From the IMG/VR virus record IMGVR_UViG_3300024259_000011: a DNA stretch of 64,000 bases. The stretch is one strand, 5' to 3'. This document shows, one piece after another, positions 3,530-64,000 of the stretch. The first letter of the stretch is position 1. Every line of letters begins with the position of its first letter. Origin of the DNA: a virus. Its lineage: Duplodnaviria; Caudoviricetes. The notes below the pieces were generated by a model. It saw only the letters and a list, made by a program, of their open reading frames with translations. It ran no database searches and was not told where the DNA came from. The position numbers were made by a program, and so were the translations under genes.

Positions 3530-3550
3530 TAAACTCTTGTCTCCGTTACT

Positions 3551-31222: not shown

Positions 31223-31245
31223 TTATATGTATCTCCTGCAAATAA

Positions 31246-31253: not shown

Positions 31254-31260
31254 TTCTTTC

Positions 31261-47244: not shown

Positions 47245-48216
47245 TTATAGTTCCTTTACCCATCGGTCGATCATGTCATCCAGAAGTGTTTCAAATGTAT
47301 ATTCTGGTTTCCAGCCCAAGACATCTACAGCCTTAGAAGGATCCCCCTTAAGATACTTAAGTTCTTCAGGACGCATATACTTTGGATTCTGAATGACATA
47401 ATCTTCGTAGTTCATTTCCAACTTGGTGAAGACTCTTTCTACAAGATTTCTTACAGAATGTGTCTCCCCAGTTGCAACAATAAATTCGTCCGGCTCATGA
47501 TGGTTCATAATCATGTGCATCGCACGAACATAATCTTTTGAGTGTCCCCAGTCTCGATAGGAGTCTAGGTTACCCAATTCAAGTTTATCTCTCAGCCCCT
47601 TTTTGATTTGCACAGCAGTCTTCACAACCTTGTTTGTCACAAAGTTTGAGCCGCGTCGAGGGGATTCGTGATTAAACAGAATACCATTACATGCGTGAAG
47701 TCCGTATGCATGGCGATAATGTCTAACCAAGTTGTACCCCATGACCTTTGCGCAGCCATAAGGACTGACAGGGTTCATGGGGGTAGTGAGGCGCTGTACG
47801 CCATCGGCGTCAACAGAGTTGCCGAACATCTCTGAAGAGCTTGCCTGATAGAAGCCAGCATTAGGAACGAAAGAGCGATAGACTTCCAACATATTCAGCA
47901 CACCCAAAGCATTTGTTTGGATAGTAAACGATGGCATGTCATAACTGATTCGTACATGGCTCATAGCTCCAAGGTTATAAATCTCATCAGGGCGGGTTTC
48001 CGACACAATACGGACCAGAGAAGGGTAATCAGTTAGATCCCCGTAGTGCGTGTGAATCTGCCCCTGCAAGTGCTGAATGCGGCTGTCTTGATTCTCTGAA
48101 ACAGATGACCTTCGGATGATTCCGTGGACCTCGTAGTTCTTTTCTAACAGCAGTTCAGATAGGTAGCTTCCATCCTGTCCTGCGATTCCTGTGATTAATG
48201 CTTTCTTTTTGCTCAT
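47245..48216 (-). CDS. gmd: GDP-mannose 4,6-dehydratase
   Basis: 'ALITGIAGQDGSYLSELLL', 'YNLGAMSHV', 'YQASSSEMFG', 'SPYGCAK', 'LFNHESPRRG', 'RDWGH'. Confidence 0.97.
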   Translation of the reverse strand: MSKKKALITGIAGQDGSYLSELLLEKNYEVHGIIRRSSVSENQDSRIQHLQGQIHTHYGDLTDYPSLVRIVSETRPDEIYNLGAMSHVRISYDMPSFTIQTNALGVLNMLEVYRSFVPNAGFYQASSSEMFGNSVDADGVQRLTTPMNPVSPYGCAKVMGYNLVRHYRHAYGLHACNGILFNHESPRRGSNFVTNKVVKTAVQIKKGLRDKLELGNLDSYRDWGHSKDYVRAMHMIMNHHEPDEFIVATGETHSVRNLVERVFTKLEMNYEDYVIQNPKYMRPEELKYLKGDPSKAVDVLGWKPEYTFETLLDDMIDRWVKEL

Positions 48217-48860
48217 TTAAGTTCCTTGTAGTATCCACCAACAGTAAAAGAAGTGCCACGGGTAGCTGACTTCTTCGCCTTTGATGGGTCGTATTTGTTA
48301 AGTGGTAAAATTCTAAAATCAAATGATACGCGGGTCTGACCCGAATCATTAATCATGTTGCCGTGATTGAGCTTCCCCCCGTCCCAGACTGTAAACTCGC
48401 CCTGATTCATTTCTATTGGCGCAAAGTCACCAAGACCCGGCACAGATTCACTCCATGTTGCGTTCGTACCAAACATATCGGTCACAGCAATCTGGATGTT
48501 GATCTCTCCCTCTGGGTGATTATATCCGGGTTGTGAATCACAATGGAATTCGGGCACTGCCCAGTTGCCCACCAAATGTACACGGAACGTAGGGAGGGTT
48601 TGGTAAATAAAGTCTCTACTTCCGTAAATCGGTACAATGACTTCTTTGACAAAGAGATCATAAGTGTCATGGAAGTCTGACCAACCTGATCGGAGCTTGT
48701 CATAAAACCGGTCATGCAACACGGTATTGGAGTTGTTTTCCATAGTAAATGGTTCGTAGGTATAATGTTTATGTAGGTTCTCCAAATCCTCATGCCCCAA
48801 AGCCTCGCAAACCAATGCGCGGAGAGGGTAATTCTCTACATCATATGTCTTTTTTTTCAT
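48213..48860 (-). CDS. StrG-like 2OG/Fe(II) cupin-fold oxygenase
   Basis: 'YQTLPTFRVH...FHCD...HGN..N.SGQTRVSFDFR' provides an HxD...H facial triad plus an RxS motif. Confidence 0.7.
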   Translation of the reverse strand: MKKKTYDVENYPLRALVCEALGHEDLENLHKHYTYEPFTMENNSNTVLHDRFYDKLRSGWSDFHDTYDLFVKEVIVPIYGSRDFIYQTLPTFRVHLVGNWAVPEFHCDSQPGYNHPEGEINIQIAVTDMFGTNATWSESVPGLGDFAPIEMNQGEFTVWDGGKLNHGNMINDSGQTRVSFDFRILPLNKYDPSKAKKSATRGTSFTVGGYYKELK

Positions 48861-49279
48861 TGTTTCTCCTCGATATAAGTCTTGTCTTTTTCGACGCCAA
48901 AATAGGGACCGGTCTTGAACTCATATAAAATAGTGCCCTCTTCTAAAACCTCAAAGCTGTGACCACCACGGAACACAATTGCGGCATCGCCTTCGCCCAA
49001 CTCTGTCTCATAAATCAATTGATCGTCGATATCCCAGAACCTAGCAGCAACGCGACCCTTCAAAAACACCCAAGCCTCTTGGGTAATATCTGTCGTTCGG
49101 ATTATCTCGTTGTGGCGGTGAGGTGCAAAGGTGGTTCCCTTGGAAAGCTTCTTGGTTGCACACTGTAAGTATTGATCGTCTGGACTAAGATCGGCGCGGT
49201 TGACACCGATTTCGTCGCCCCGGTTAATAACCAGCAGCAGCGTGCCGGGGTCTGCTGCAGAATGGACATGAATCATCAT
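48857..49279 (-). CDS. Cupin (WbuC-like) protein
   Basis: 'FAPHRH...QEAW...GGHSFEVLE...EFKTGPY'. Sits between nucleotide-sugar enzymes. Confidence 0.75.
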   Translation of the reverse strand: MMIHVHSAADPGTLLLVINRGDEIGVNRADLSPDDQYLQCATKKLSKGTTFAPHRHNEIIRTTDITQEAWVFLKGRVAARFWDIDDQLIYETELGEGDAAIVFRGGHSFEVLEEGTILYEFKTGPYFGVEKDKTYIEEKQ

Positions 49280-50391
49280 TTTCTCCTGTAGAATTCTTTA
49301 ATTACATCGCAGACATATAAAATCTGCTTCTCTGTTAGCGCGGCAAAAGAGGGCAGGCACACGCCATGGTTACGGGCGTGTTCGGCAACCTCAAAATGCT
49401 TGCGGTTGTGGCGCTCGTCATCAGCCCAGATGTCAAAACAGGGCTGTAGATGGAGCGGGTGAAAAAAGGTTCTTGGCTCAACGCCATTCATAGACATAAA
49501 GCCCATCAAATGTTCGCTCGGATGGCTTCGGGTGCGCAAGATAACTCGGAACGGCACATACGGCTCTACCTTTTCAGCCGGAGACAAAAGCTCAACCTCT
49601 TCAACATCTGCTAGCGCTTCTTTATAAAGGCTGTAGTTTTTCTGCTTTTTCTCGATGATTTCGGGCAGCTTCTTTAGCTGAGCCAAACCGATTGCCGCTT
49701 GTACGTCATTCATCCGAAAGTTGTATCCGATTGCTGGGTGTTCAAAAGTGCCTCTATGGAGACGACCTTGGTTTCTCAGAAGAAGAAGTTTATTATAGAT
49801 CTCTTCGTCGTCTGTCGTTACAAAGCCGCCCTCGCAGGTGGTTAAAGTCTTGTCTGCAAAGAAAGAAAAGGATCCGGTGTCTCCAAAGCTTCCGCAGCCT
49901 TGACCGTCCCACTTAATACTTAGTGCCTGAGCAGCGTCTTCGATAACCATTAGGTTCCTTTCTTCTGCGTACTTCATGATCTCCGTCATGTTTGCTGCAA
50001 ATCCATAGATATGAACCGGCATAATTGCCTTAGTTTTGTCGGTGCGTACACGCTCGCAATCGTCAATGCGAAGTTGCAAGTCGTGACATCCAACGTCAAC
50101 AAATACGGGGCGGGCACCAACCATTTCGACGGCGTTTGCGGAGGCAATAAATGTGAAGTCTGGCACAATGACTTCATCGCCGGGACCGATACCCATCGCC
50201 CGTAAAGCGAGGTAAAGCGACAAAGTGCCATTTGGAGCGAAAACACCGTATTTACTTCCAATTATTTCAAGCAATTTCTCGCTAAACTCTGCTGCCTTCG
50301 GACCTTCTGTAATCCAGTTGTCTTCAAAGCAGCTTTTAATAGCTTCATATTCTTCCATGCCAATGTAAGGCATAAACTGTGGAACTCTCAT
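49276..50391 (-). CDS. DegT/DnrJ/EryC1/StrS PLP aminotransferase (perosamine-synthase-like)
   Basis: 'NGTLSL', 'GDEVIVPDFTFIASANAV', 'IEDAAQA', 'FSFFADKTLTTCEGG' (catalytic Lys), 'GYNFRM'. Confidence 0.93.
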   Translation of the reverse strand: MRVPQFMPYIGMEEYEAIKSCFEDNWITEGPKAAEFSEKLLEIIGSKYGVFAPNGTLSLYLALRAMGIGPGDEVIVPDFTFIASANAVEMVGARPVFVDVGCHDLQLRIDDCERVRTDKTKAIMPVHIYGFAANMTEIMKYAEERNLMVIEDAAQALSIKWDGQGCGSFGDTGSFSFFADKTLTTCEGGFVTTDDEEIYNKLLLLRNQGRLHRGTFEHPAIGYNFRMNDVQAAIGLAQLKKLPEIIEKKQKNYSLYKEALADVEEVELLSPAEKVEPYVPFRVILRTRSHPSEHLMGFMSMNGVEPRTFFHPLHLQPCFDIWADDERHNRKHFEVAEHARNHGVCLPSFAALTEKQILYVCDVIKEFYRRK

Positions 50392-50852
50392 GTACCGTAT
50401 TCCATCCTATAATTCGTGACATAATCACTGCATATTCCCAAACATCGGGATAAGTCTACTCTAGAGTATACCACGTTTTCTGGCATAACGCAAATGGTTT
50501 TCTCGTTTAATGTTTTTCCCGGGTATGCCCAAATCATGCCGGCAGAGGTTAATGTATAATCATCCTCTTGATGCCAGAACACGTTCCATCCTTTTTCGCG
50601 AGTAAAGTATGTGTATGTTTCTAAGTCTTTTGCGTGGATGAACAGATGCCCTCGGCGTTCTTCAAACCATTCAATAGGCAACTTGTGTTCGCCGTAGTCA
50701 TGACCCATGATAAACTGTCCGAGCATATTCCCCTTTCTAACGTCTATTTCGGCGTAGAAGCCTTCTGACAGGGCTTTGTCGATGTAGTCGGGGCTGTTCT
50801 CCAGTTCGGGCTTAGGACCGTCTGTGTTGCCTCTGTGGGCTATATACATCAT
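50388..50852 (-). CDS. PLC-like/GDPD-like phosphodiesterase-fold protein
   Basis: 'YIAHRGN...ENSP...EIDV...GHD...HAKD...WHQEDD...GICSD'. Confidence 0.7.
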   Translation of the reverse strand: MMYIAHRGNTDGPKPELENSPDYIDKALSEGFYAEIDVRKGNMLGQFIMGHDYGEHKLPIEWFEERRGHLFIHAKDLETYTYFTREKGWNVFWHQEDDYTLTSAGMIWAYPGKTLNEKTICVMPENVVYSRVDLSRCLGICSDYVTNYRMEYGT

Positions 50853-51586
50853 TGTTCAAGACCTCCGTGGAGGCGCCGAACAAGCTGGAAGTCTTCAATC
50901 TCCCAGAAGTGAAACTTGAACTTATCTAACATGTTTTCTTTTTCTATGTGATATGGGATAACGTCGTGGTTTGACATGCGGCAGTTCCCCACATAAATAT
51001 ATTCTGGTACTTTCCGGACCAAATCTATCGTACGGTCCATGGCTTCGGAGCCGCCAAACAACCAATATTCCAGCACGCCTTCTACGGGCATGCCTTTGCT
51101 GTTAAAGGTGTCAAAGACTGTATCCTTCTCATGGCGACCGCACCAGATAGAGTCACGGTCGAACTGGCTGAAATCCAAGGGCTTGAGCCACGCCACATCG
51201 AAACGAGATGTCATAACATAATCATATTTGAAGCCATGCTCTTTTTCGTAGTCGTCTTTAAGTCGTAGCACCTTTTCGTTAGAGTACCAACGACTCATGA
51301 TTGAATGAAAGTGCCGTGGCACATCAGAGTGTACCTTCTTATCAAATCTATTCGCCAATGAATCAAAGTCAATCTGTTTTTGAAGCATATATTTTTTAGG
51401 GTCATAAAACTCTACCAGTTCTTCTTCAGCTTCAGTGCTCCATGTGTGAAAGAACACATCGACTTCTTGACTTCCAAGGTTAATAATGTTGTCTTTGAAA
51501 TATGGGACTGCCAGTTGCCAGTCAACGGGGAGCCCTTTGTCATTCTTTCCGCCGGCAAGACCATTAAAACATAATGCAACTCTCAC
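50849..51586 (-). CDS. Putative glycosyltransferase-like protein
   Basis: 'RVALCFNG...VDVFFHTW...SRWYS...YDYVMTSRFD' is a pattern seen in glycan clusters of large viruses. GT-A-like RxD motif. Confidence 0.55.
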   Translation of the reverse strand: MRVALCFNGLAGGKNDKGLPVDWQLAVPYFKDNIINLGSQEVDVFFHTWSTEAEEELVEFYDPKKYMLQKQIDFDSLANRFDKKVHSDVPRHFHSIMSRWYSNEKVLRLKDDYEKEHGFKYDYVMTSRFDVAWLKPLDFSQFDRDSIWCGRHEKDTVFDTFNSKGMPVEGVLEYWLFGGSEAMDRTIDLVRKVPEYIYVGNCRMSNHDVIPYHIEKENMLDKFKFHFWEIEDFQLVRRLHGGLEQ

Positions 51587-52215
51587 TCTGCTCTCCTTGA
51601 AATATCAGCAACCAAGCCATAGTTAACATCGCGCCAGCTTTTGACTTCATGTACAGAGGCACCAGTGGCGCGTGCAGCTTCAAGCCCTACTATAGAGTCC
51701 TCAAAGATAATACATTCGTCAAGGTCACACCCGATACGCGCTAGCATCATCAAAGCACGGATGTACGGCTCGGGATGTGGCTTCGGATTGATGACATCAC
51801 TATTTGTAATAAGCACGTCGATGTATTTTGCAAAATCTAAGTGTTCCAATAACATACGGGTAGACTGACCATTAGCATTTGTTACAATGGCTATCTTCTT
51901 TTTCTGTTCTTTGAGGTACTTAAACATTTCTATCTTATCAAAGTAATGCTGAGGGTTTAGTTCTGCCATCAGTTCATTTGCAATCTGTTTCTTGTCTTCA
52001 TAAATCGGATATACCTGATCCATGGTGATGTAACCCTTGTCACAAAACTTGATAAGCTTAGCCTTAGTGGTGATTGTAGAGTTTACAATCTCCAAGTCAC
52101 TAGGGTGCCTAACATTAAAGTCGCGGCGCCCAAGCGCTCGTACAATCGAGCGAACCTGAATATCGGTAGTGTCAACGAGTACGCCATCAAAGTCAAAGAT
52201 AAAAGCCTTATACAT
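51583..52215 (-). CDS. HAD-family phosphatase
   Basis: 'FDFDGVLVDT' (motif I), 'VTN', 'PKPHP', 'FEDS..G'. Confidence 0.9.
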   Translation of the reverse strand: MYKAFIFDFDGVLVDTTDIQVRSIVRALGRRDFNVRHPSDLEIVNSTITTKAKLIKFCDKGYITMDQVYPIYEDKKQIANELMAELNPQHYFDKIEMFKYLKEQKKKIAIVTNANGQSTRMLLEHLDFAKYIDVLITNSDVINPKPHPEPYIRALMMLARIGCDLDECIIFEDSIVGLEAARATGASVHEVKSWRDVNYGLVADISRRAE

Positions 52216-52216
52216 G

Positions 52217-53605
52217 CTATTCCCTAGGGTGGTGCTGAAGATAGTGGTTTAGATCCTCGGGTGTTCCGAGACCCCACATTCTATCAATGTGGAAAACCTT
52301 AATCTTCTGGGCGTCCTCGCATGCCTGATTGTATACAGGGCAAACATAAAACTCGTTATTAGTACGAATATCTCGCTCAATCATTTGCTCAGTATACTTT
52401 ACATAATCAGAGCCCTTGCGGAAGTAATAAACTCCAGCCGTCGCAATATTGCTAATGGGATTCTTCTCTGCGACCTCTGTAACAAACCCATCGTCACCAA
52501 GCTTTGCGAAACTCCACTTGGGATGAGTCGCTTCAAAGGTAAGGATACCTCCGTCTACCTCATCTGCAACCATAGAATACATAAACTCGTTGCTGTCCCA
52601 CTCAAAAACCTGATCGGAGTTTGAGATGACCAGAGGCTCATCGTTATTGATAAACTCCTTTGCCAACAATGTAGTACACGCTGCACCTTCAGTAATGCCG
52701 TCCACCTGTACAATCACACATTCCGGTGAGATGAGGTTTAATAACTGTTGAAGATTATATTTCTCATAGTGCGACTTTTGCACGATGTAAATGTGACGAG
52801 CCTCGATGTTCAAGTTCTCCGTCACTAGTTGGATCATTGGTTTACCGTTGACATCGATAAGCGGCTTCGGGAAAGTATACCCTGCCTTTTCAAATCGACT
52901 TCCGGCACCCGCCATTGGAATTAATACGTTCATTTTGCCTCCTTGCCATGGTGTAATAATTTTTTGAGATTTAAAGTTATGTTCGATAGCACCCTTGACC
53001 TTCTCATAGGTCACGTCGTCAGGGTTACGCACCGCGCATAAAGAAGCACCTGAACTGAGTGCTGCCTTACGACCGATGTGTGAGTCCTCTACAATAAGAG
53101 TATACTTGGGTCCGATGCCAGCTTTGATCATGCACTTCAGATACATTTCTGGGCTGGGCTTTGGAGCCTTGACATCTTGGTTGGAATAAATAAACTCGAC
53201 ATACTCCAAGAGTCCCTTCTTGAGAAGCATCATCTTCACGGATTCTCTGATAGAGTTCGATGCGCAGCAGATTCTATATCCGTCATCGCGGAGTTGCTTG
53301 AGCACCCCACGCATGCGTGTGTCATACTCCATCTCCTCGGAGATGATCTTGTAAGTCATGTCCTGCTTGCGCTGCCACACAGTATTGTGTAGTTCCTTCG
53401 GCAAGCCCTTGTTCTTTGTGAGCATGTTCAGCTTCTTTGACGTGGGCAGCCCATCATATGTTGATAGGTGCTCAGCACGATTCACAATGTACTTTCCGTC
53501 CACTGATGCTAACGCTCTGTTTAAAGCCTCGTAGTGTAGCTCGCGAGCATCTACGAGGACGCCATCTAAATCGAAGATGACTAAGATTTCACTATTGTCT
53601 ACCAT
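52217..53605 (-). CDS. HAD phosphatase / sugar-phosphate nucleotidyltransferase fusion
   Basis: N-terminal 'FDLDGVLVD...PKPSP...EDS'. C-terminal 'LIPMAGAGSRF...PKPLI...EGAA...NSD...EK...GTPEDL'. Confidence 0.9.
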   Translation of the reverse strand: MVDNSEILVIFDLDGVLVDARELHYEALNRALASVDGKYIVNRAEHLSTYDGLPTSKKLNMLTKNKGLPKELHNTVWQRKQDMTYKIISEEMEYDTRMRGVLKQLRDDGYRICCASNSIRESVKMMLLKKGLLEYVEFIYSNQDVKAPKPSPEMYLKCMIKAGIGPKYTLIVEDSHIGRKAALSSGASLCAVRNPDDVTYEKVKGAIEHNFKSQKIITPWQGGKMNVLIPMAGAGSRFEKAGYTFPKPLIDVNGKPMIQLVTENLNIEARHIYIVQKSHYEKYNLQQLLNLISPECVIVQVDGITEGAACTTLLAKEFINNDEPLVISNSDQVFEWDSNEFMYSMVADEVDGGILTFEATHPKWSFAKLGDDGFVTEVAEKNPISNIATAGVYYFRKGSDYVKYTEQMIERDIRTNNEFYVCPVYNQACEDAQKIKVFHIDRMWGLGTPEDLNHYLQHHPRE

Positions 53606-55226: not shown

Positions 55227-55228
55227 CT

Positions 55229-55564
55229 CTATCCCTTATACGCTCTGATTGCAACGATCTTGCTATCGGAATTGAACTCAATGATGTCCACAACTAGGAA
55301 AGGGTCCATTCCTGTTATCATAATCTCGATTTCAGCCGAAATTGTAAGGTCATCTGTGTCAAAATGTAGCGCAATTGGGCGCACCACGATGGCTTCCACG
55401 TTCTCAAAAAGTGCCGCATTTGCCTTCAATACCGGATATTTGCCTACATACGTCCCTTCCCAGTCTCGTAAATAAATGTTATCGGCATACAACTCCCCTA
55501 AACGCTCTGTGTCTTTAGCCGAAAATGCGTCAAAATACGCTACTGCTGTTGAATATAAATCCAT
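55229..55564 (-). CDS. SnoaL/NTF2-like protein
   Basis: Start moved to the ATG at 55564 (AAGGAG RBS). 'YFDAFSAKD...LYAD...DW...G...VVDIIEF...KIVAIRAYKG'. Confidence 0.75.
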   Translation of the reverse strand: MDLYSTAVAYFDAFSAKDTERLGELYADNIYLRDWEGTYVGKYPVLKANAALFENVEAIVVRPIALHFDTDDLTISAEIEIMITGMDPFLVVDIIEFNSDSKIVAIRAYKG

Positions 55565-55574
55565 TTGTTTCTCC

Positions 55575-57232: not shown

Positions 57233-57233
57233 G

Positions 57234-58950: not shown

Positions 58951-58952
58951 TG

Positions 58953-59759
58953 TTAATCTCTGCAGTCTCTATAGTGGTAGTTAAATGTTGTTAACTGATC
59001 GCCCCAAGCCTGCTCCAGTAGATGTACTTGGCGGAGCGTGTACTTGTCTTTATGCGTTTCTTCAACTGGGTTTATATTGCTTTCTTCTGCAGCAACGTTC
59101 CGATATGGAATCTCGTTCCTTTCGCACCAACTGGTAAAGTCTGTCTGTAGATATTCGGTTCTCAATATGTTTTCCATCTTAGGAATCAAAGTTCCGTCTT
59201 TCCTGTATAGCTGGGCAAATAAGTTCTGCTTAAGTGGCGGAATGTGCCAGTCCTTTCCCTCATCCAAATAATGCTCTACAAAATCATGAAATGTGGTTGT
59301 TCCCATAATCGCATTGCAGCCAAACCAGCCGCCGTGGTTATCAGTTGTTGCAACCCAATCGTCCATGTACTTTGGACGATACCGCCAATATGAATAAAAT
59401 AAATCAAATGGATTCCTGATAATCGTAACGTAGCCTATGTGGTCATTCTCTTCCGTATAGTCTGGGCTGAACTTAAGATGATATGGCATGTCCTCCAGAA
59501 ACGGCATATGAAAATATTTTGTAGCTTTGGGCTTCCATCCGTTGACTGTAAACCTATACGGAAATGAATGTCCTAGATTCTCTACTTTAGCCCCTAGGGG
59601 TTCAACCGAATCCGCCTTTGACACTACATGCTTTCCTAGATTGTCCATCAGATAGAGATATTCCATCTTTTCTGGGGGAGGCTTAAAAGCATCAAGTGAG
59701 TTCTTAAGCCAAGTCCCTCCCGTTTTGGGAACATGAATAAATAGCCATTTAGAAATCAT
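58953..59759 (-). CDS. Sulfotransferase (Sulfotransfer_2-like)
   Basis: 5'-PSB 'FIHVPKTGGTWLK' and 3'-PB-like 'IIRNPFD..YS'. True start is the ATG at 59759, overlapping the upstream stop. Confidence 0.8.
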   Translation of the reverse strand: MISKWLFIHVPKTGGTWLKNSLDAFKPPPEKMEYLYLMDNLGKHVVSKADSVEPLGAKVENLGHSFPYRFTVNGWKPKATKYFHMPFLEDMPYHLKFSPDYTEENDHIGYVTIIRNPFDLFYSYWRYRPKYMDDWVATTDNHGGWFGCNAIMGTTTFHDFVEHYLDEGKDWHIPPLKQNLFAQLYRKDGTLIPKMENILRTEYLQTDFTSWCERNEIPYRNVAAEESNINPVEETHKDKYTLRQVHLLEQAWGDQLTTFNYHYRDCRD

Positions 59760-61197
59760 AGTCGAACATCTCAATGTCTTCTTGATATCTCTCCGCAACT
59801 TTGGCACGGAGGTTGTCAGTATAGTAATCTTTGTAGGCGCCGGAGTTCGAGGAAACGTTAATGTTCCCAAGCTCGTTGTCAATATTGACGTTGGCACACA
59901 AATACGCCCATTCTTCTTCGATGTTCTCCAGCTTTCCAACATGGTTAACGAATACTTCACCGCGATGTGTGATGAATGTATGTTGTGACCTGAAATGGTC
60001 TTCCGCCAACTCATCTGGAATTGCGCAGACCGCATCTGCGAAATCAGAGAACGTCATGTCAGGCTGAAATAAGTCTCCGTAGTTTTTTACCAAAGCGCGG
60101 TGGACGCCATTCTCATAAAAATCGTTTGTATCTCCAGACGCAAGAATCTTATTCTTATAGCAAGAGACAAGTCGATCCCATGGATTGCGAACTATTGCGA
60201 ACTTTAGATAATCCCACACACGGTCTGTAGCCATCAAATGCTTAGATGCGATTGGCCAATTGGCAGCGTGCATCGCCTCAAAAGAGTGTAAGTCGTTAAA
60301 TACATCCTCTTTAGCTTCGGTGCTGATATTCACTTCTACGTCGAACTTGGTCGCCAGCGCCATTTTAAGACTGCTGCATGCGACCTTTGGAATGAAAGTA
60401 TACACAAACCGATTTGCCTCTGAGACAATGCAGGTCGATGGGTATTGCCCATGTTCCTGCGGGAGTGTTGCATAAGGACGCTTGGCACGAATCTCATTCT
60501 CCGTTCGGATCTGCAACTCGTTATCAATCTTATGATCGTTTAGCGGGTTTGACATATTGTAAACGTATAAAGGTTCAGTTACGTGAGTGCTCTTTGCTCC
60601 AGCCATCTCCAGCATTGGGAACATGAAAGCTAAGTCCCATGCCATGCGGTAAAAGTTGCCATCAGTGTCCTTAAGATCTGCAGGGTCAATGCGCTTCCAC
60701 AGGTCGTGCTTAAACGTACGCAAGTGAGAAGCCTGCCACGGGGATCTTCTTAAGACACTATTAGCTACCCATTCGTTAGGGATTTGCTTCGCAAACTTAC
60801 CCTTCATCCCAGATGGATATTCGGCGTAGCTACCGTAAGTCATTCTGCAATCTGAGTTCTTATAGATTTGGTCTAAAGCATACAATACGTCTCTGCGAGA
60901 CAGCCAGTCATCACCGTCAAGGGTTACAATAACGTCTTCCGGGGAGGGGTCTGCGATCTTAATGCCATCGTAAATATTCTTAAGAGCATATGCTTTTTCT
61001 TGCACCTCAATAAATATAAAGCGAGGGTCATCACCGATCTCTTCGCGTACAATCTTTGCTGTACCATCTGTTGACATGTCATCCAATAGGATACATTGGA
61101 AATCTTTATAGTCCTGCGCCTTGACCGAACGAATACAAACTTTAATCCACTTCTCTACGTTGTAAAACGGAACAATGATTTTAAAATGGTTACCCAT
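59749..61197 (-). CDS. GT2 glycosyltransferase / Sulfotransfer_2 fusion
   Basis: N-terminal 'IIVPFYN...DDMSTD...LDGDDWL'. C-terminal 'FIPKVACSSLK...IVRNPWDRLVSCY...HFRSQ...GKLE'. Confidence 0.88.
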   Translation of the reverse strand: MGNHFKIIVPFYNVEKWIKVCIRSVKAQDYKDFQCILLDDMSTDGTAKIVREEIGDDPRFIFIEVQEKAYALKNIYDGIKIADPSPEDVIVTLDGDDWLSRRDVLYALDQIYKNSDCRMTYGSYAEYPSGMKGKFAKQIPNEWVANSVLRRSPWQASHLRTFKHDLWKRIDPADLKDTDGNFYRMAWDLAFMFPMLEMAGAKSTHVTEPLYVYNMSNPLNDHKIDNELQIRTENEIRAKRPYATLPQEHGQYPSTCIVSEANRFVYTFIPKVACSSLKMALATKFDVEVNISTEAKEDVFNDLHSFEAMHAANWPIASKHLMATDRVWDYLKFAIVRNPWDRLVSCYKNKILASGDTNDFYENGVHRALVKNYGDLFQPDMTFSDFADAVCAIPDELAEDHFRSQHTFITHRGEVFVNHVGKLENIEEEWAYLCANVNIDNELGNINVSSNSGAYKDYYTDNLRAKVAERYQEDIEMFDYDF

Positions 61198-62041
61198 TTA
61201 ATATCCCCTTCACGATCTGCGGAATCTCTTCTCGTTTCTGATGCATTACCTCAATAAGTTCTGTGCCCTTGAGCCCAAACCACTTTTCTTTAGTGGCGCC
61301 AACATTCTGATTTGTAATAACTGTCATACCCATCATCCTAGCTTCAACTGCGATGCGGGAAAGTGTCTCTGGTGTCTGTGGGAAGAACACAATTCTTTTA
61401 TAGCTTCCGAGCCTTTGCAGGAACTCATGATAATCACAAGGAGCGATCAGTTCATATTTTAGTTGCTTCATCCTGCAGTAGCGTACGGCTCCAACAGTAT
61501 TCTTGTGCCAGTTGTCAGTCTGCATAATCGCACAGGTGTCCACCTTCTCTTGACTTGACAAGTCTTTCATGAGGGACAGGCTTTCTGGCGACCAAAGGTT
61601 GCCGCCCAAACTCTTGATGGTTTCCAACCCTAAGTTCTTCCGTACGATATCCGCGTGGAAATCTGATTGGCACAATACTGCTGCAGCATTCTTATAAAGC
61701 TCATAGTGAACAATATCCGACCGGGGTACCTGATAATCTGGGTACTCTGCTGGGTTACGATTACGCACGTATTTATGATCGTGCTCGTAAATAATGTACT
61801 TCGCTTTTTCAACCAGCTTTTTATAACTTTGATATGGTAGTTGAAGAAAGTTAGAAACAATATAATAGTCTACCAGTCCATACTCGATGGCAACAGGGTC
61901 TAAGTTTCTACTCTTGACTTTCATGATATGAAAATCGGCAGAAAGAAGCTTAATAAGTTCATCGTTATTCACTTCTCCTCCGCCGCTGATCTCGTCAGCA
62001 AAGAAATCAGCTACAAATGCTATTGTTGGCTTTCTGCTCAT
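61190..62041 (-). CDS. GT-B fold (GT4-like) glycosyltransferase
   Basis: 'GGGEVNN', 'YEHDHK', 'VLCQS..H', 'ETLSRIAVEARMMG'. Confidence 0.7.
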   Translation of the reverse strand: MSRKPTIAFVADFFADEISGGGEVNNDELIKLLSADFHIMKVKSRNLDPVAIEYGLVDYYIVSNFLQLPYQSYKKLVEKAKYIIYEHDHKYVRNRNPAEYPDYQVPRSDIVHYELYKNAAAVLCQSDFHADIVRKNLGLETIKSLGGNLWSPESLSLMKDLSSQEKVDTCAIMQTDNWHKNTVGAVRYCRMKQLKYELIAPCDYHEFLQRLGSYKRIVFFPQTPETLSRIAVEARMMGMTVITNQNVGATKEKWFGLKGTELIEVMHQKREEIPQIVKGILNG

Positions 62042-62270
62042 TCATTCTTTCCTTAAAATCTTCTTTGTCCTCTACATGCCCTTCTTCAAACCACATAACA
62101 TCGCCATGCTTGTTTCGCAGGACGCCATAAGTTATATGGTCGGAATAAACGTGATGCTGACGAACTTCAGTTACAACGCCGAAGCCGGCATCGCGACCCA
62201 TGATACCTTCTGCATATGCTTCGTACCATCGGACAAACTGTCCAACTTCGTATTTATTCGTGCTCTTCAA
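62007..62270 (-). CDS. Small hypothetical protein (SH3/KOW-like beta barrel)
   Basis: TTG start at 62270 with a GGAGG RBS. 'YEVGQFVRW...GFGVVTEV...YGVL...WFEE'. Has a 35-nt 3' overlap with the next gene. Confidence 0.5.
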   Translation of the reverse strand: MKSTNKYEVGQFVRWYEAYAEGIMGRDAGFGVVTEVRQHHVYSDHITYGVLRNKHGDVMWFEEGHVEDKEDFKERMNEQKANNSICS

Positions 62271-63534
62271 CGCCAGCCTCCAACTCAGTAAGCCATGCAT
62301 CGATGTCTAACTTCTGATCGCCGGCGAATGCCTCGCAAAACTCTGCATACTTTTGTTCAGCAGTAAAGTTGGCAAGTAGGTGCTTCTTGAGTCGAGTTGC
62401 CTGTCCCTTATAACGGGAGGAGTCTTTATACAGTGCCCGCATTTGCTTCTTCGCGCTGTCTTCCGTTGGCTCACACCACTGTGAACCTTTCACCAATACC
62501 CCTTCCCACACTACATCGTCGGGAATGTCAACCATGGTGTGTTCCACCTTAAGAAAGTGAGGTCGAAGCTTGTCGCTTTTCTTGCTGTTGCTGGGGGCAA
62601 ACAAAAAGTCCATCTGCCCACTCCACGCAGGAGCGATAACTGGAAGACCTTCGTATGCTGCCTCAAATAGCGGAAGCCCGAAACCCTCTCCGTGTGTCAA
62701 AGTGACGAGGGCATTGATCTGAGGGTGTCGATATAGAGTATGCATTTCTGCCTCAGACATGTGACCATGAACCAAGTGAATCTTGCACTTCCTATTCGGG
62801 AACTGACTCAGCGCTTCAGCCAATTGCTTCTTAACAAAGTCGCGGTCCATGTTGGAGGCATTCATATGGAAGACCTTAAGCACCAGCCCAGCATCCTCGT
62901 TGTCATTAAACTCTTCGATGAACCATTTCATCATATTAGGTACATTCTTGCGCGGACCCCACTGGGCTACGCACAGAAGGTTAAAATCTGTGCTGAACTC
63001 CAGTCCGAGATCAACTGATTCAAAACTCTTAACCGGATAGTTGACAGCAGTGACTGGGACTTGAACGCTAGCGACACCAATCTTTTCATTGGTCTGGCGA
63101 TCCATGATTGTGTATTCCGTACCTTCGTATACTTCCTTGGCATGGTTTGAGACCACAATAATGCGGTCCATATCTCGGGACTTCTCGATCCATTGAGGGG
63201 CGACCCGGGTTGTTTCAATCCCAGCGGTGTACCCGACATTGACCGGTGCGATCTTCTGCCACTCATTGGGAATGGTTACCTGCAAAGATATATCATACTC
63301 TCCGTTTTGTTGGTTGTGCTGTACCGTCTTATGCAGAATATTGTCCAGCCATTCTCGCTCTTCGTTGTCTTCATGAATCCAGCCGGTCTGACCCCAGCTA
63401 GTAGTATTCAAGTAGATATCGTATTGGTCTTCTTGTGATCGCAGAGAGCGTAAAGCAAATCGAGTTTGCTCTCCGTATCCGGACAATGTTAATGCCGGTC
63501 CAACGACTATCACCTTTGGTCTGTTATCACTCAT
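62254..63534 (-). CDS. GT4 (glycosyltransferase group 1) protein
   Basis: 'LSGYGEQTR', 'RKN', 'HGEGFGLPLFEAA...PVIA..WSG..DF'. Start at 63534 (ATGA overlap). Confidence 0.88.
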   Translation of the reverse strand: MSDNRPKVIVVGPALTLSGYGEQTRFALRSLRSQEDQYDIYLNTTSWGQTGWIHEDNEEREWLDNILHKTVQHNQQNGEYDISLQVTIPNEWQKIAPVNVGYTAGIETTRVAPQWIEKSRDMDRIIVVSNHAKEVYEGTEYTIMDRQTNEKIGVASVQVPVTAVNYPVKSFESVDLGLEFSTDFNLLCVAQWGPRKNVPNMMKWFIEEFNDNEDAGLVLKVFHMNASNMDRDFVKKQLAEALSQFPNRKCKIHLVHGHMSEAEMHTLYRHPQINALVTLTHGEGFGLPLFEAAYEGLPVIAPAWSGQMDFLFAPSNSKKSDKLRPHFLKVEHTMVDIPDDVVWEGVLVKGSQWCEPTEDSAKKQMRALYKDSSRYKGQATRLKKHLLANFTAEQKYAEFCEAFAGDQKLDIDAWLTELEAGVEEHE

Positions 63535-64000
63535 AGCTCTGTATGCTCCCATCCTTTATAGTTTTTGCGACCGTCTGGGTGGTTCCAAGAACCATAGTGT
63601 TCATATGCTTCTTCTAACAGGCTAACCCAGCGGTCAGTATATACCTGAAAGTTATAGTTATTGAGCGTGTGCTCTCGACCGGCTAGCCCCAACTTGGAGC
63701 GGTCTGCCGAAGACATCTCATATACCTTCTTAAGAGCCGAAACAAGCTGCTGAGAACCAATCCTGTCTTCGTAGATATAAGGTACGTCTTGGGAGCCAAT
63801 AACTGCCTTTGAAGAGGGCTCAAGCCCGATGCCAAACCAGTTTGTCCCGTCTGTAACCTGCTCCTGCAAGCCGCCGGTCATGGTGACAATGATAGGAGTA
63901 CCACAAGAAAGTGATTCCAGTGTTGCCAAGCCAAAGCCTTCTGCGTCACTAATGTTAACCGTGCAATCAGCAGCGTTATACATCATAGCTAAACGATCCG
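63531..64000 (-). CDS. GT4 glycosyltransferase; C-terminal part only, starts beyond the right edge
   Basis: 'YNAADCTVNISDAEGFGLATLESLSCGTPII'. The frame is open to base 64000. Confidence 0.88.
   Translation of the reverse strand, partial: DRLAMMYNAADCTVNISDAEGFGLATLESLSCGTPIIVTMTGGLQEQVTDGTNWFGIGLEPSSKAVIGSQDVPYIYEDRIGSQQLVSALKKVYEMSSADRSKLGLAGREHTLNNYNFQVYTDRWVSLLEEAYEHYGSWNHPDGRKNYKGWEHTEL

What the first reader, a model, noticed from the sequence alone, without database searches (positions are those of the whole stretch)
47245..64000. At least 17 kb of glycan synthesis, sulfation and methylation genes adjoining the baseplate operon
Seen: about 21 contiguous co-oriented genes, including about 10 GT or GT-like ORFs, two sulfotransferase domains, a methyltransferase, an oxygenase and nucleotide-sugar enzymes. 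No flippase, Wzy/Wzz, ABC exporter or lipid-carrier transferase is visible. Known: giant eukaryotic viruses glycosylate capsids and fibrils with their own clusters, while bacterial surface-glycan loci normally include export genes. Inference: the acceptor is cytoplasmic (virion protein or DNA). Adjacency to virion genes and the [S/T]GS enrichment favour virion proteins.
Basis: partly seen in the sequence, partly recalled or inferred. Interest (0 to 1): 0.8.

Follow-up and report, generated by a model that had tools for sequence, protein, structure and literature searches.

The report
Phage glycan island, candidate virion sequon
A widespread marine tailed phage carries a 21-gene sugar-building island with no export machinery. 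Comparative evidence suggests, without proving, that it decorates exposed tail and baseplate proteins at a short [S/T]-G-S motif.

Summary
Positions 47245-64000 (plus about 805 nt beyond the window) carry 21 tightly packed minus-strand genes. They include GDP-mannose dehydratase, a DegT aminotransferase, a HAD-nucleotidyltransferase fusion, a methyltransferase and two sulfotransferase domains. Eight genes are glycosyltransferases or GT-like: four by Pfam, two by fold and three by language-model neighbours, one of them counted under both Pfam and fold.

None of the 21 proteins has a membrane segment. No flippase, polymerase, priming transferase or ABC exporter was found in the 7 kb upstream in the same phage, or anywhere in four complete relatives.

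It acts at the protein level, depends on residue order, and persists across relatives while individual sites turn over. It is confined to virion proteins, including the non-core insertion region of the tail sheath.

The enrichment occurs in all four genomes tested that carry the island's GT4 gene g20, including cultured Flavobacterium phage immuto and Microcystis phage Mel-JY01. It is absent from four that lack g20. One of those four is a related huge phage that shares 19 of 22 core genes.

Published mass spectrometry of immuto DNA reports no glycosylated base.

My reading is virion-protein glycosylation (about 0.5), with host-surface remodelling as the main rival. Other readers of this scan noted the same island on overlapping windows.

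The parts
63531..64000 (-). g21, GT4 glycosyltransferase. Only the C-terminal 155 aa lie in the window; the full protein is 424 aa and starts about 805 nt beyond the window end. First gene of the island.
   Evidence: Pfam Glycos_transf_1 E=9.5e-12. Full gene on L081:7237-8511. Best PDB sequence hits are BshA 5d00 and chlorovirus B736L 3oy2. Homologues found in 31 of 80 related loci, in immuto and in Mel-JY01.
62254..63534 (-). g20, lineage-specific GT4-like GT-B glycosyltransferase (426 aa). Candidate enzyme that reads the sequon or primes the glycan.
   Evidence: Weak Pfam GT1/GT4 hits. AlphaFold model pLDDT 90.6. Best PDB fold match is chlorovirus NY-2A B736L at E=1.6e-15, with SdgB and GtfA in the top 50. 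The family profile hits B736L at E=3.2e-7. An EX7E-like pair of invariant glutamates, E283 and E291, is present. Among 50,697 phage records it is found only in the immuto phages and Mel-JY01. It is the only enzyme gene whose distribution matches the [S/T]GS-positive genomes.
62007..62270 (-). g19, 87-aa ORF of unknown function that overlaps both neighbours.
   Evidence: Called on L081/L082. Conserved in L001 (82%) and L002 (61%). No family hit.
61190..62041 (-). g18, 283-aa protein, probably GT-B/GT1-like. Part of the conserved core.
   Evidence: Atlas neighbours are virus-only clusters, some carrying Glycos_transf_1 (score 0.95-0.96). Homologues in 29 of 80 loci. No Pfam hit.
59749..61197 (-). 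g17, fusion of a GT2 glycosyltransferase and a Sulfotransfer_2 sulfotransferase (482 aa).
   Evidence: Pfam Glycos_transf_2 E=5.4e-20 and Sulfotransfer_2 E=4.2e-27. The GT2 half is conserved in all 80 loci, which were retrieved with g17 as the query, so this is by construction. The full fusion was confirmed only in the closest relatives L001 and L002.
58953..59759 (-). g16, divergent second sulfotransferase (268 aa from the corrected start).
   Evidence: 5'-PSB-like motif HVPKTGGT and 3'-PB-like motif RNPFD. hhalign against the g17 sulfotransferase domain gives probability 90.7%, E=1.3e-6. Pfam gives only Sulfotransfer_1 E=0.018. No PDB sequence hit.
58036..58950 (-). g15, GT10 (fucosyltransferase-type) glycosyltransferase. 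Expected to use a GDP-6-deoxyhexose donor.
   Evidence: Pfam Glyco_transf_10 E=4.1e-11. Present in 20 of 80 loci.
57234..58085 (-). g14, SAM-dependent methyltransferase.
   Evidence: Pfam Methyltransf_23 E=1.3e-22.
56462..57232 (-). g13, GT-A-fold glycosyltransferase-like protein (256 aa).
   Evidence: Model pLDDT 83.1. Foldseek hits B4GALNT1 (E=3e-7), Mimivirus R699, the ABO transferases and SpsA. No Pfam hit.
55575..56465 (-). g12, probable GT2/GT7C-like GT-A protein.
   Evidence: Atlas neighbours are virus clusters carrying Glycos_transf_2 or Glyco_transf_7C (score 0.96-0.97). This is a lead only.
55229..55564 (-). g11, SnoaL/NTF2-like small protein (111 aa).
   Evidence: Pfam SnoaL_2 E=7.7e-9. 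Start taken from L081.
54315..55226 (-). g10, probable GT-A nucleotide-diphospho-sugar transferase-like protein.
   Evidence: Atlas neighbours carry DUF1647, Glyco_transf_8, Nucleotid_trans or TOD1_MUCI70 (score 0.94-0.97). This is a lead only.
53605..54318 (-). g09, 237-aa protein, unassigned.
   Evidence: No Pfam or NCBIfam hit. Conserved in L001 and L002.
52217..53605 (-). g08, fusion of a HAD (beta-phosphoglucomutase-like) domain and a sugar-1-phosphate nucleotidyltransferase.
   Evidence: Pfam HAD_2 E=3.6e-27 and NTP_transferase E=1.2e-10. 96-97% identical in L001 and L002.
51583..52215 (-). g07, second HAD-IA (beta-PGM family) enzyme.
   Evidence: Pfam HAD_2 E=1.8e-29; TIGR02009 95 bits.
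50849..51586 (-). g06, 245-aa protein, unassigned.
   Evidence: Only a weak DUF7796 hit, E=3.9e-4, below cut-off.
50388..50852 (-). g05, 154-aa protein. It looks GDPD/PLC-like by eye only.
   Evidence: No family hit at E<=5. Homologues in 5 loci.
49276..50391 (-). g04, PLP-dependent sugar aminotransferase (DegT/LegC/PseC type).
   Evidence: Pfam DegT_DnrJ_EryC1 E=1.9e-104. The best NCBIfam match is the LegC family at 270 bits, below its cut-off.
48857..49279 (-). g03, WbuC-type cupin. Possibly a sugar isomerase or epimerase.
   Evidence: TIGR04366 at 37 bits, cut-off 42.
48213..48860 (-). g02, possible 2OG-Fe(II) oxygenase. Inconclusive.
   Evidence: TIGR04324 E=3.6e-5 over 40 residues, 23 bits against a cut-off of 150.
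47245..48216 (-). g01, GDP-mannose 4,6-dehydratase. Last gene of the island.
   Evidence: Pfam GDP_Man_Dehyd E=1.8e-115; TIGR01472 380 bits. Present in 45 of 80 loci.
47022..47237 (-). 71-aa ORF that fills the apparent gap between the island and the downstream genes.
   Evidence: Read directly from the sequence.
45729..46421 (-). Late-sigma-factor-like gene between the island and the spike and baseplate genes.
   Evidence: phrog_234 E=2.9e-7. Conserved in relatives, immuto, Mel-JY01 and LR756508.1.
29405..31650 (-). gp25-like and gp6-like baseplate wedge genes.
   Evidence: phrog_261, phrog_43 and phrog_219.
27897..29405 (-). 502-aa virion-module protein enriched in [S/T]GS. Candidate acceptor.
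   Evidence: 7 observed against 1.0 expected, z=6.3. The orthologue in G001 is also enriched.
11537..27907 (-). 5456-aa baseplate-module giant protein. It is the main carrier of the [S/T]GS motif and a candidate acceptor.
   Evidence: 47 observed against 9.1 expected, z=13. The motifs are encoded by 39 different codon triplets, and SGS and TGS are the two most over-represented tripeptides. Enrichment is kept in five orthologues while 71 of 108 motif columns are unique to one sequence. No Pfam domain.
1..681 (-). N-terminal 227 aa of a roughly 420-aa virion-module protein enriched in [S/T]GS.
   Evidence: 6 observed against 0.5 expected. The orthologues in G001 (10 against 0.78) and G004 (5 against 0.72) are also enriched.

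Best explanation
The island is a self-contained, soluble, cytoplasmic glycan factory of a lytic marine myovirus. Its most likely product is an O-linked glycan placed on exposed virion proteins: the giant baseplate protein, its neighbours, the fibre or spike proteins, and the non-core insertion region of the tail sheath.

Proposed steps:
1. Sugar supply. The HAD-nucleotidyltransferase fusion (g08) and the second HAD (g07) make an NDP-hexose, probably GDP-mannose. This is inferred.
2. Sugar tailoring. GMD (g01) makes GDP-4-keto-6-deoxymannose; this is supported at family level. The cupin (g03), the oxygenase-like protein (g02) and the aminotransferase (g04) then turn it into an amino-dideoxyhexose. 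This is inferred.
3. Assembly. A conserved core of transferases (g21, g20, g18 and the GT2 half of g17) builds an inner glycan. The variable set (the GT10 g15 and the GT-A-like g13, g12 and g10) adds outer sugars. This is inferred from conservation patterns.
4. Decoration. The methyltransferase (g14) and the two sulfotransferases (g16 and the C-terminal half of g17) decorate the glycan, using host PAPS. This is inferred.
5. Attachment. The glycan is attached at a hydrophobic-[S/T]-G-S motif. The lineage-specific GT4 g20 is the best candidate for the enzyme that recognises the motif. This rests on comparative genomics only.
For: Soluble machinery and no export genes:
- None of the 21 island proteins has a TM-like segment.
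- No export gene lies in the 7 kb upstream in the same phage.
- Wzx, Wzy_C, Bac_transf, Glycos_transf_4 and ABC2_membrane were not found in four complete relatives plus one that is 78% complete; the Wzx search covered three complete relatives plus that one. The searches rang in 10-14 of 14 control genomes.

The motif is real and specific:
- 47 against 9.1 expected (z=13), 7 against 1.0, and 6 against 0.5 in three window proteins. The other large virion proteins have 0-2, and the pooled island proteins have 1 against 2 expected.
- It is encoded by 39 different codon triplets.
- It depends on residue order. SGS is 5.7x and TGS 5.9x, against SGG 0.63, GGS 0.67, SSG 0.89, SGT 1.3 and TGT 0.7, with F/V/I favoured at position -1.

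The motif behaves like a short linear motif:
- Enrichment is kept in five orthologues of the giant protein (z 5.7-10.3).
- Meanwhile 71 of 108 motif columns are unique to one sequence.

The motif is confined to virion-module proteins:
- G001 and G004 each have 5 enriched proteins, all in the structural block.
- These include the tail sheath. Its motifs lie only at aa 137-638 (G001) and 142-605 (G004), outside the conserved C-terminal core.

The motif co-occurs with g20:
- Immuto and Mel-JY01 carry g21-g20 homologues (E=1e-56 and 1e-40 for g20). They have 6 and 7 enriched proteins, among them immuto's tail spike 169, spike 167 and sheath 229.
- T4, S-WAM2, Desulfovibrio phage 7757 and LR756508.1 lack g20 and have none among 253, 204, 206 and 691 ORFs.
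- LR756508.1 shares 19 of the 22 clade-core ORFs and has its own GMD/GT2/g21-like cluster. It lacks g20 and the motif. g20 is the only enzyme with that distribution.
- The two cultured hosts belong to different phyla, so the trait follows the phage and not the host.

Fold of g20: its nearest solved structure is a chlorovirus GT (B736L), and the cytoplasmic protein O-GlcNAc transferases SdgB and GtfA are in the top 50.

DNA as an alternative acceptor is disfavoured.
Against: - No glycan has been observed on any virion of this lineage. All evidence for the acceptor is correlative.
- The four motif-positive genomes form one clade, so co-occurrence with g20 is partly shared ancestry. Only one informative within-clade negative exists (LR756508.1).
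- The hydrophobic flanks of the motif would also fit a structural beta-turn preference.
- Soluble GT2 and GT4 enzymes without TM segments are also normal in lipid-linked O-antigen assembly.
- Comparable cyanophage clusters are read in the literature as host-surface modification (PMC7824862, PMC12801897).
- Adjacency to baseplate genes is not conserved in immuto or Mel-JY01.
- The fold matches of g20 also include many small-molecule GT4 enzymes.
- No RNA run was listed that holds the island, so timing of expression is unknown.
- The sigma-70 promoter and terminator scans are at chance level.
Confidence: 0.5

Rival explanations
1. Host-surface remodelling. The island builds a sulfated, methylated oligosaccharide on a host lipid carrier such as Und-PP. 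The host's own priming transferase, flippase or ABC transporter and ligase then export it. This would change the LPS or capsule during infection, for example to block superinfection or to stop progeny being lost on cell debris. Cyanophage 'LPS' clusters are read this way. On this reading the [S/T]GS motif is unrelated.
For: [quoted passage not shown] Both are interpreted as cell-surface modification (PMC7824862; PMC12801897).
- GT2, GT4 and GT10 enzymes, GMD, DegT and WbuC-type cupins are typical O-antigen locus content.
- The gene content between the conserved core and GMD varies between relatives, as O-antigen loci do.
Against: - No priming transferase, flippase, polymerase or exporter is found in the window, upstream, or in four complete relatives.
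- The phage would have to match host machinery in hosts as different as Flavobacterium and Microcystis while keeping the same GT pair.
- This reading does not explain the order-specific, virion-restricted motif that tracks g20.
Confidence: 0.28
2. DNA hypermodification. The glycosyltransferases decorate modified bases in the phage genome to evade restriction, as in T-even phages and other phages with glycosylated hydroxymethyl-pyrimidines.
For: - Phage GTs commonly act on DNA; Pyle et al. 2024 is cited for this in PMC12619734.
- A PD-(D/E)XK nuclease gene sits immediately upstream of the GT pair in the window phage, its relatives and immuto.
Against: - No ThyA/dCMP-hydroxymethylase family gene is present in any of the four complete relatives. 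The only match, in the 78%-complete G001, is a sub-threshold 10.9-bit hit inside the giant ORF.
- In immuto_2-6A, which carries the homologous GT pair and island, LC-UV-MS/MS found canonical dA, dC and dT, with dG fully replaced by fdPreQ1 (324 Da) and no glycosylated nucleoside (PMC10516641).
- A 21-gene pathway with sulfation is far beyond any known DNA glycan.
- Caveats: the Tet_JBP search had no positive control. The TGT search missed immuto's known DpdA3, so it says nothing about 7-deazaguanine systems here.
Confidence: 0.03
3. Another cytoplasmic product. The island makes a soluble glycoconjugate or small molecule, for example a sulfated glycoside, a modified cofactor, or a decoration of a host protein. 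The virion motif has a purely structural origin.
For: - g20's fold neighbours include small-molecule GT4 enzymes such as BshA, TreT, SenB and VldE.
- The island also holds SnoaL-like, cupin, oxygenase-like and HAD enzymes, which are common in natural-product pathways.
- Jumbo cyanophages have sugar-derived secondary-metabolite clusters (PMC7824862).
Against: - Eight GT or GT-like genes indicate an oligosaccharide rather than a monoglycoside.
- No polyketide, NRPS or aglycone-forming enzyme is present in the island.
- This reading leaves the motif unexplained.
Confidence: 0.12

Closest known systems
Megavirinae (Mimivirus-group) fibril glycosylation gene clusters
   Same: Both are virus-encoded and host-independent. 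Both are clusters of roughly 6-33 genes that combine bacterial-type nucleotide-sugar pathways (amino-dideoxyhexoses), several GTs and methyltransferases. Some clades also have sulfate-metabolism enzymes, for example Moumouvirus australiensis (12 genes) and Cotonvirus (21 genes). Sugar content is clade-specific, and the glycans end up on external virion proteins (PMC9614988). The g13 model also matches Mimivirus R699 among GT-A folds.
   Different: Those are eukaryotic giant viruses whose glycans have been shown chemically. Here the host is bacterial and nothing has been shown chemically. The genes here form a gapless operon-like block. A short candidate sequon and a lineage-specific GT4 are proposed here and have no described counterpart there.
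Mycobacteriophage virion glycosylation (Freeman et al. 2023, as summarised in PMC12619734)
   Same: A tailed phage encodes its own GTs, and the glycans sit on virion proteins assembled in the cytoplasm.
   Different: Those systems use a few GTs and modify the C-termini of the capsid and tail-tube subunits. This island has 21 genes including its own sugar synthesis, methylation and sulfation. Its presumed sites are internal [S/T]GS motifs in sheath, baseplate and fibre proteins. I could not read the primary paper because it is not held.
Cyanophage 'LPS' / cell-wall synthesis and modification clusters (P-SSM2, S-SCSM1, S-SCSM2R)
   Same: Both are large multi-GT clusters with NDP-sugar enzymes in T4-like or jumbo marine phages, polymorphic between relatives (PMC7824862, PMC12801897). 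From memory, not checked here, those clusters also lack export genes.
   Different: The phage lineage is different. The one cyanomyovirus examined, S-WAM2, has no g20 homologue and no motif enrichment. Those clusters are interpreted as host-surface modification and, as far as I know (not checked here), none has a demonstrated acceptor. Sulfotransferases are not described for them in the passages I read.
Chlorovirus GT B736L / A546L (PDB 3OY2, 3OY7)
   Same: It is the best solved-structure match to both g20 (Foldseek E=1.6e-15; profile E=3.2e-7) and g21 (E=4.3e-9). It is a virus-encoded GT-B/GT4 enzyme that binds GDP-mannose.
   Different: Sequence identity is only about 14%. The acceptor of B736L is itself unknown (PMC9614988), so the match says 'viral GT4' and not 'capsid glycosyltransferase'.
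Bacterial O-antigen / capsule loci (Wzx/Wzy or ABC-transporter dependent)
   Same: Both have GMD, DegT aminotransferase, a WbuC-type cupin, GT2/GT4/GT10 enzymes and a methyltransferase in one co-oriented block.
   Different: The priming phosphoglycosyl transferase, flippase or ABC transporter, polymerase and chain-length regulator are all missing from the island, its flanks and complete relatives.
Cytoplasmic protein O-glycosyltransferases of the GT4 family (GtfA/GtfB, SdgB)
   Same: These are GT-B enzymes that glycosylate Ser in short repetitive motifs of surface proteins before export. They appear among g20's top 50 fold matches.
   Different: TM-scores are modest (about 0.46-0.50). They are no better than matches to small-molecule GT4 enzymes. 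Whether g20 has the extra beta-domain (DUF1975) of GtfA/SdgB was not tested.

Membership tests
Virus-encoded virion glycosylation system | The virus encodes its own glycosyltransferases | tested here: met
   Four GTs by Pfam, two by fold (g20, also counted under Pfam, and g13), and three by language-model neighbours.
Virus-encoded virion glycosylation system | The virus encodes nucleotide-sugar synthesis or tailoring enzymes | tested here: met
   GMD, DegT aminotransferase, HAD-NTP transferase, cupin.
Virus-encoded virion glycosylation system | Glycans are covalently attached to virion proteins | not testable with these tools
   The evidence is indirect only: an order-specific [S/T]GS motif confined to virion proteins that tracks g20.
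Bacterial Wzx/Wzy- or ABC-dependent surface polysaccharide locus | Initiating phosphoglycosyl transferase (Bac_transf or Glycos_transf_4) | tested here: not met
   None found in the island or in four complete relatives, with positive controls.
Bacterial Wzx/Wzy- or ABC-dependent surface polysaccharide locus | Flippase (Wzx) or ABC-2 transporter | tested here: not met
   No TM protein in the island. PF01943 and PF01061 are absent from the relatives.
Bacterial Wzx/Wzy- or ABC-dependent surface polysaccharide locus | Polymerase or ligase (Wzy_C) | tested here: not met
   PF04932 is absent from five relatives.
Phage DNA glycosylation (hydroxymethyl-pyrimidine type) | dNMP hydroxymethylase of the ThyA family | tested here: not met
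   PF00303 gave no match in the four complete relatives and only a sub-threshold 10.9-bit hit, inside the giant ORF, in the 78%-complete G001. The window phage's own full genome could not be searched.
Phage DNA glycosylation (hydroxymethyl-pyrimidine type) | Glycosylated nucleosides in virion DNA | not testable with these tools
   Published LC-MS of the cultured relative immuto_2-6A reports dA, dC, dT and fdPreQ1 only (PMC10516641).
GT4 (GT-B, retaining) glycosyltransferases, for g20 and g21 | Two-Rossmann GT-B fold with the C-terminal EX7E-type motif | tested here: met
   g20 model pLDDT 90.6; all top Foldseek hits are GT-B/GT4. Invariant E283 and E291 lie in the GEGFGxP...E block. g21 hits Pfam Glycos_transf_1 above cut-off.
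Sulfotransfer_2 (PF03567) | Score above the family threshold, with 5'-PSB and 3'-PB PAPS-binding motifs | tested here: met
   The C-terminal half of g17 scores 96.3 bits against a cut-off of 22.
Sulfotransfer_2 (PF03567), for g16 | Score above the family threshold, with 5'-PSB and 3'-PB PAPS-binding motifs | tested here: inconclusive
   No Pfam hit to PF03567. hhalign against the g17 domain gives probability 90.7%, E=1.3e-6, with both motifs aligned.
Moraphages (PMC12619734) | Genome of 200-307 kb and phylogenetic placement with the 25 described genomes | not tested
   Both groups have several core GT genes (four core GT orthogroups in moraphages; g21, g20, g18 and the GT2 half of g17 here), a PhoH gene, sigma-like and gp6/gp25 genes, and a Bacteroidota link. 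Complete relatives here are 185-193 kb and marine, and no moraphage sequences were available to compare.

The most novel reading that the evidence does not exclude
A very abundant clade of marine (and some freshwater) myoviruses coats its tail sheath, baseplate and fibres with a sequon-directed, multi-sugar, methylated and sulfated O-glycan. This would be a proteoglycan-like virion surface, primed by a clade-specific GT4 (g20) at hydrophobic-[S/T]-G-S sites. A conserved inner glycan (g21, g20, g18 and the GT2 half of g17) would carry outer sugars that vary between relatives. It would be the first defined glycosylation sequon for a phage virion and the first sulfated phage glycan.
Probability: 0.33. 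Interest if true: 0.85.

Novelty: new variant of a known kind. Interest (0 to 1): 0.68.

Why it matters
Phage-borne glycan clusters have been known since P-SSM2, but to my knowledge none has a demonstrated acceptor. Virion glycosylation in phages has been shown only for a few-gene system in mycobacteriophages.

This work gives the question a concrete, testable form:
- a defined motif (hydrophobic-[S/T]-G-S);
- a defined set of candidate acceptor proteins: the sheath insertion region, spike and fibre proteins, and the giant baseplate protein;
- one candidate enzyme (g20);
- two cultured systems that carry all three, Flavobacterium phage immuto and Microcystis phage Mel-JY01.

The family is ecologically large. 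At least 6184 protein clusters in public metagenomes are related to g20. This phage's island is found nearly letter for letter in seawater metagenomes of at least 14 studies from 2012 to 2020.

A sulfated glycan coat on the tails of abundant marine phages would bear on adsorption, on resistance to proteases and grazers, on sticking to marine polysaccharide gels, and on how virion mass and charge are modelled.

Tried and rejected
- The window's own genome is not held. An exact 49-mer was not found in IMG/VR. Megablast of the island against 50,697 phage records found nothing. An exact-protein look-up of my first g20 start failed; the g18 look-up succeeded.
- The sigma-70 promoter and terminator scans of the island are at chance level: 38 against 30.5±5.3 and 17 against 15.2±4.1. 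The 'late motif' ACTAATTAT noted elsewhere in the genome does not occur in this window. Timing of expression therefore could not be inferred.
- No RNA-seq run was listed as holding the island.
- The Pfam TGT search for DpdA was negative even in immuto, which is known to encode DpdA3. That result is uninformative and I discarded it. The Tet_JBP search had no positive control.
- Pfam at E<=5 gave nothing useful for g02, g05, g06, g09, g10, g12, g13 or g18. PDB sequence searches gave nothing for g20 as a single sequence or for the g16 profile. Pfam found no domain in the giant protein, p502, p227, p378 or the 1846-aa G001 protein.
- I considered that the [S/T]GS excess reflects a DNA-level signal. 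I rejected this because 39 different codon triplets encode it.
- I considered that it reflects low-complexity Ser/Gly composition. I rejected this because the permuted tripeptides SGG, GGS and SSG are not enriched.
- I considered that it reflects a shared repeat domain. I rejected this because the enriched proteins show no cross-similarity apart from orthologues.
- I considered that it reflects the host phylum. I rejected this because the cultured hosts are a Flavobacterium and a Microcystis.
- The portal protein appeared as 'absent' from LR756508.1 in the phyletic profile. Portals are universal in tailed phages, so I treat that as sequence divergence and not as signal.
- Membership in the 'moraphage' lineage could not be tested.

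Full report
**1. What is there**

Positions 47245-64000 hold 21 minus-strand ORFs whose stops and starts overlap or abut. The exact 283-aa product of gene g18 occurs on many public contigs: 172 index blocks, of which 24 contigs were read. Two of these (L081, 62.7 kb; L082, 143.8 kb) gave independent gene calls for the same phage plus 10 kb beyond the window end. Those calls confirm 21 genes and correct four starts. They show that the first gene, a 424-aa GT4, ends about 805 nt outside the window. The island is therefore about 17.6 kb, as readers of overlapping windows also noted.

Upstream of the island lie a PD-(D/E)XK nuclease, small ORFs, a PIN-PhoH protein, an AhpC/thioredoxin and a cytidylyltransferase-like gene. 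None is an export gene. Downstream, the one apparent gap is filled by a 71-aa ORF (47022-47237). The block then continues into small genes, a late-sigma-like gene, a spike protein with a peptidase domain, and gp25-like and gp6-like baseplate genes.

**2. Gene content**

Pfam and NCBIfam assign the following:
- GDP-mannose 4,6-dehydratase
- a DegT/LegC-type aminotransferase
- a HAD enzyme and a HAD-nucleotidyltransferase fusion
- a SnoaL-like protein
- a class-I methyltransferase
- a GT10
- a GT2-Sulfotransfer_2 fusion
- two GT4 enzymes
- a near-threshold WbuC cupin
- a very weak 2OG-oxygenase match

It aligns profile-to-profile with the g17 sulfotransferase domain at 90.7% probability, E=1.3e-6, with the PKTGGT/PKVACS and RNPFD/RNPWD motifs in register.

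Two structure predictions helped:
- g20 has pLDDT 90.6 and is a GT-B enzyme. Its best solved neighbour is the chlorovirus NY-2A glycosyltransferase B736L.
- g13 has pLDDT 83 and a GT-A fold.

Language-model neighbours suggest that g10 and g12 are GT-A-like and g18 is GT1-like. g05, g06, g09 and g19 stay unassigned. None of the 21 proteins has a hydrophobic segment of transmembrane type.

**3. The phage and its relatives**

The window comes from a large myovirus with no close cultured relative. Megablast against 50,697 phage records finds nothing. By the gp6-like baseplate protein, the nearest isolates are Flavobacterium phage immuto and Microcystis phage Mel-JY01, both at about 30% identity, followed by a 484-kb uncultured phage, LR756508.1.

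IMG/VR holds 80 loci with a relative of the GT2 protein. L001 and L002 are syntenic with the window across the stretches fetched; neither locus reached g01-g03. Across the 80 loci:
- g21, g20 and g18 recur in about 30.
- GMD recurs in 45.
- The aminotransferase recurs in 37 and the GT10 in 20.
- The remaining genes occur in 2-15.

The island therefore has a conserved core plus a variable periphery, between fixed flanks: the nuclease on one side and the sigma, spike and baseplate genes on the other.

The island DNA occurs almost letter for letter (31-mer share >=0.94) in 20 marine or seawater metagenome runs from at least 14 studies, 2012-2020. The g20 family has at least 6184 clusters in public protein data. 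The top 120 are >=51% identical and lie on contigs of <=202 kb.

**4. Export genes and DNA modification**

I searched complete relatives (185-193 kb, CheckV 100%) and one that is 78% complete, in six frames. Wzx was searched in three complete relatives plus the partial one, and the other families in four plus the partial one. Wzx, Wzy_C, Bac_transf, Glycos_transf_4 and ABC2_membrane were all absent. The same searches rang in 10-14 of 14 control genomes. No APS kinase was found, so PAPS must come from the host.

The ThyA/dCMP-hydroxymethylase family is absent. The Tet_JBP and TGT searches are uninformative: the first had no positive control, and the second missed immuto's known DpdA3.

Immuto_2-6A carries the homologous nuclease-GT-GT arrangement followed by its own sugar genes. 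Its DNA has been analysed by LC-UV-MS/MS. dA, dC and dT are canonical, and dG is fully replaced by fdPreQ1. No glycosylated nucleoside is reported (PMC10516641). DNA is therefore an unlikely acceptor.

**5. The [S/T]GS motif**

Shuffles give 9.1±2.9 (z=13). p502 has 7 against 1.0 and the edge protein has 6 against 0.5. The other large virion proteins of the window have 0-2, and the pooled island proteins have 1 against 2 expected.

Properties of the motif:
- It is encoded by 39 different codon triplets, and SGS and TGS are the two most over-represented tripeptides in the giant protein.
- It has no extended consensus and is scattered along the chain.
- The giant orthologues in five relatives (2949-4863 aa, 36-67% identity) all keep the enrichment (z 5.7-10.3). 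Meanwhile 71 of 108 motif columns are unique to one sequence. That is how a short linear motif behaves when it is selected for density and not for position.

Pooled over 25 enriched proteins there are 314 copies against 51 expected. Only S or T is tolerated at position 1, and only S at position 3. G is preferred at position 2, then A, then S. F/V/I is favoured at -1 and F/A/L at +1. Permutations of the same residues (SGG, GGS, SSG) are not enriched.

**6. Which proteins carry the motif, and which genomes**

In G001 and G004, scanned genome-wide, five proteins each pass p<1e-3. All lie in the structural block: the giant protein, p502, the p227 family, a 1846-aa or 1056-aa protein, and the tail sheath. 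The sheath motifs lie only in the inserted region (aa 137-638 and 142-605) and not in the conserved C-terminal core.

Immuto and Mel-JY01 both carry g21-g20 homologues (E=1e-56 and 1e-40 for g20). They have six and seven enriched proteins. In immuto these include tail spike 169 (26 against 5.9) and the sheath 229, with spike 167 just below the cut-off at p=3.5e-3. In Mel-JY01 they mostly flank the baseplate genes.

T4, cyanophage S-WAM2 and Desulfovibrio phage 7757 have no g20 homologue and no enriched protein.

The most informative control is LR756508.1. It shares 19 of the 22 ORFs common to G004, immuto and Mel-JY01. It even has a g21-like GT, a GT2 and a GMD. It lacks g20 and has no enriched protein among 691 ORFs. 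Three core ORFs are missing from it:
- the portal protein, which is universal in tailed phages, so this is simply divergence;
- a 367-aa structural protein that is itself motif-rich;
- g20.

Among 50,697 phage records, g20 homologues occur only in the immuto phages and Mel-JY01.

**7. Interpretation**

I favour virion-protein O-glycosylation in the cytoplasm, at about 0.5. The proposed steps are as follows. The family assignments are supported by the searches cited; every substrate, the order of steps and the acceptor are inferred.
- A GDP-mannose-derived amino-dideoxyhexose branch: g08 and g07, then g01, then g03, g02 and g04.
- A conserved set of inner transferases: g21, g20, g18 and the GT2 half of g17.
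- A variable set of outer transferases: g15, g13, g12 and g10.
- Methylation by g14.
- Sulfation by g16 and the C-terminal half of g17.

The main rival, at about 0.28, is remodelling of host envelope glycans through host lipid-carrier and export machinery. This is the conventional reading of cyanophage clusters (PMC7824862, PMC12801897). It explains the gene content equally well but not the motif.

The caveats are serious:
- There is no chemistry.
- The four positive genomes form one clade.
- There is only one within-clade negative.
- The hydrophobic flanks of the motif would also suit a beta-turn.
- Adjacency to baseplate genes is not conserved in the cultured relatives.
- The g20 fold does not discriminate between protein and small-molecule acceptors.

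**8. Comparison with known systems, and novelty**

In function the closest analogue is the set of clade-specific glycogene clusters that decorate Megavirinae fibrils. Some of those also include sulfate-metabolism enzymes (PMC9614988). Among phages the closest analogue is the much simpler mycobacteriophage system. In gene content the island resembles a bacterial O-antigen locus stripped of every membrane step.

I class it as a new variant of a known kind. Phage glycan clusters and phage virion glycosylation are each known. What is new is the combination of:
- a 21-gene island with two sulfotransferases;
- a sharply defined candidate sequon restricted to exposed virion proteins;
- a single clade-specific candidate transferase;
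- two cultured systems that carry homologues of that transferase (g20) together with the motif, in which the hypothesis can be tested.

Noticed in passing
window 47022-47237 (-): A 71-aa ORF (MNMSTTMKTLNL...) fills what looks like a 229-nt intergenic gap after GMD. As a result there is no non-coding break between the island and the downstream sigma, spike and baseplate genes.
   Followed up: partly
L085 = G004:C1:66864-68354: The p502 orthologue in the complete relative G004 contains one in-frame TGA. This could be a sequencing error, readthrough or a broken gene.
   Followed up: no
PP395634.1 (Mel-JY01) 635-5655: Two Ser/Gly-rich, [S/T]GS-rich ORFs (805 aa: 37 against 19 expected; 508 aa: 13 against 2.5) lie next to a 1234-aa ORF that contains a Glycos_transf_1 domain. 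This may be a second glycosylation module with its substrates alongside.
   Followed up: no
LR756508.1 about 306-322 kb: This 484-kb uncultured phage shares most clade-core genes. It has its own cluster with a g21-like GT4, a GT2 and a GMD (48% identical to g01). It has no g20 and no [S/T]GS enrichment.
   Followed up: partly
MW353176.1 47964-58766 (immuto35A_87 to _100): Cultured Flavobacterium phage immuto has the same arrangement of a PD-(D/E)XK nuclease followed by GT4, GT4 and GT2. This is followed by aminotransferases, a methyltransferase, a mannosyltransferase, a 'pilin glycosylation protein' and an NDP-sugar epimerase. The conserved nuclease next to the GT pair is unexplained.
   Followed up: partly
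hits P0018, P0028, P0042 and others: Some g20-family proteins in metagenomes are fused to a GT2 domain (about 655-698 aa). One is fused to PF01973, which I recall is the MptE/Maf-like domain found in flagellin glycosyltransferases; I have not checked this recollection.
   Followed up: no
window 62007-62270 (-): g19, an 87-aa ORF wedged between g20 and g18 and overlapping both, is conserved in the two closest relatives and has no family match.
   Followed up: no
window 54001-64000: The island is present with >=94% of its sampled 31-mers in 20 marine or seawater metagenome runs from at least 14 studies (2012-2020). This genotype is cosmopolitan and stable, even though island content differs between related phages.
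   Followed up: partly
window 41397-45431 (-): A 1344-aa spike- or tape-measure-like protein with M23 peptidase and endolysin/amidase-type matches sits between the sigma-like gene and the baseplate genes.
   Followed up: no
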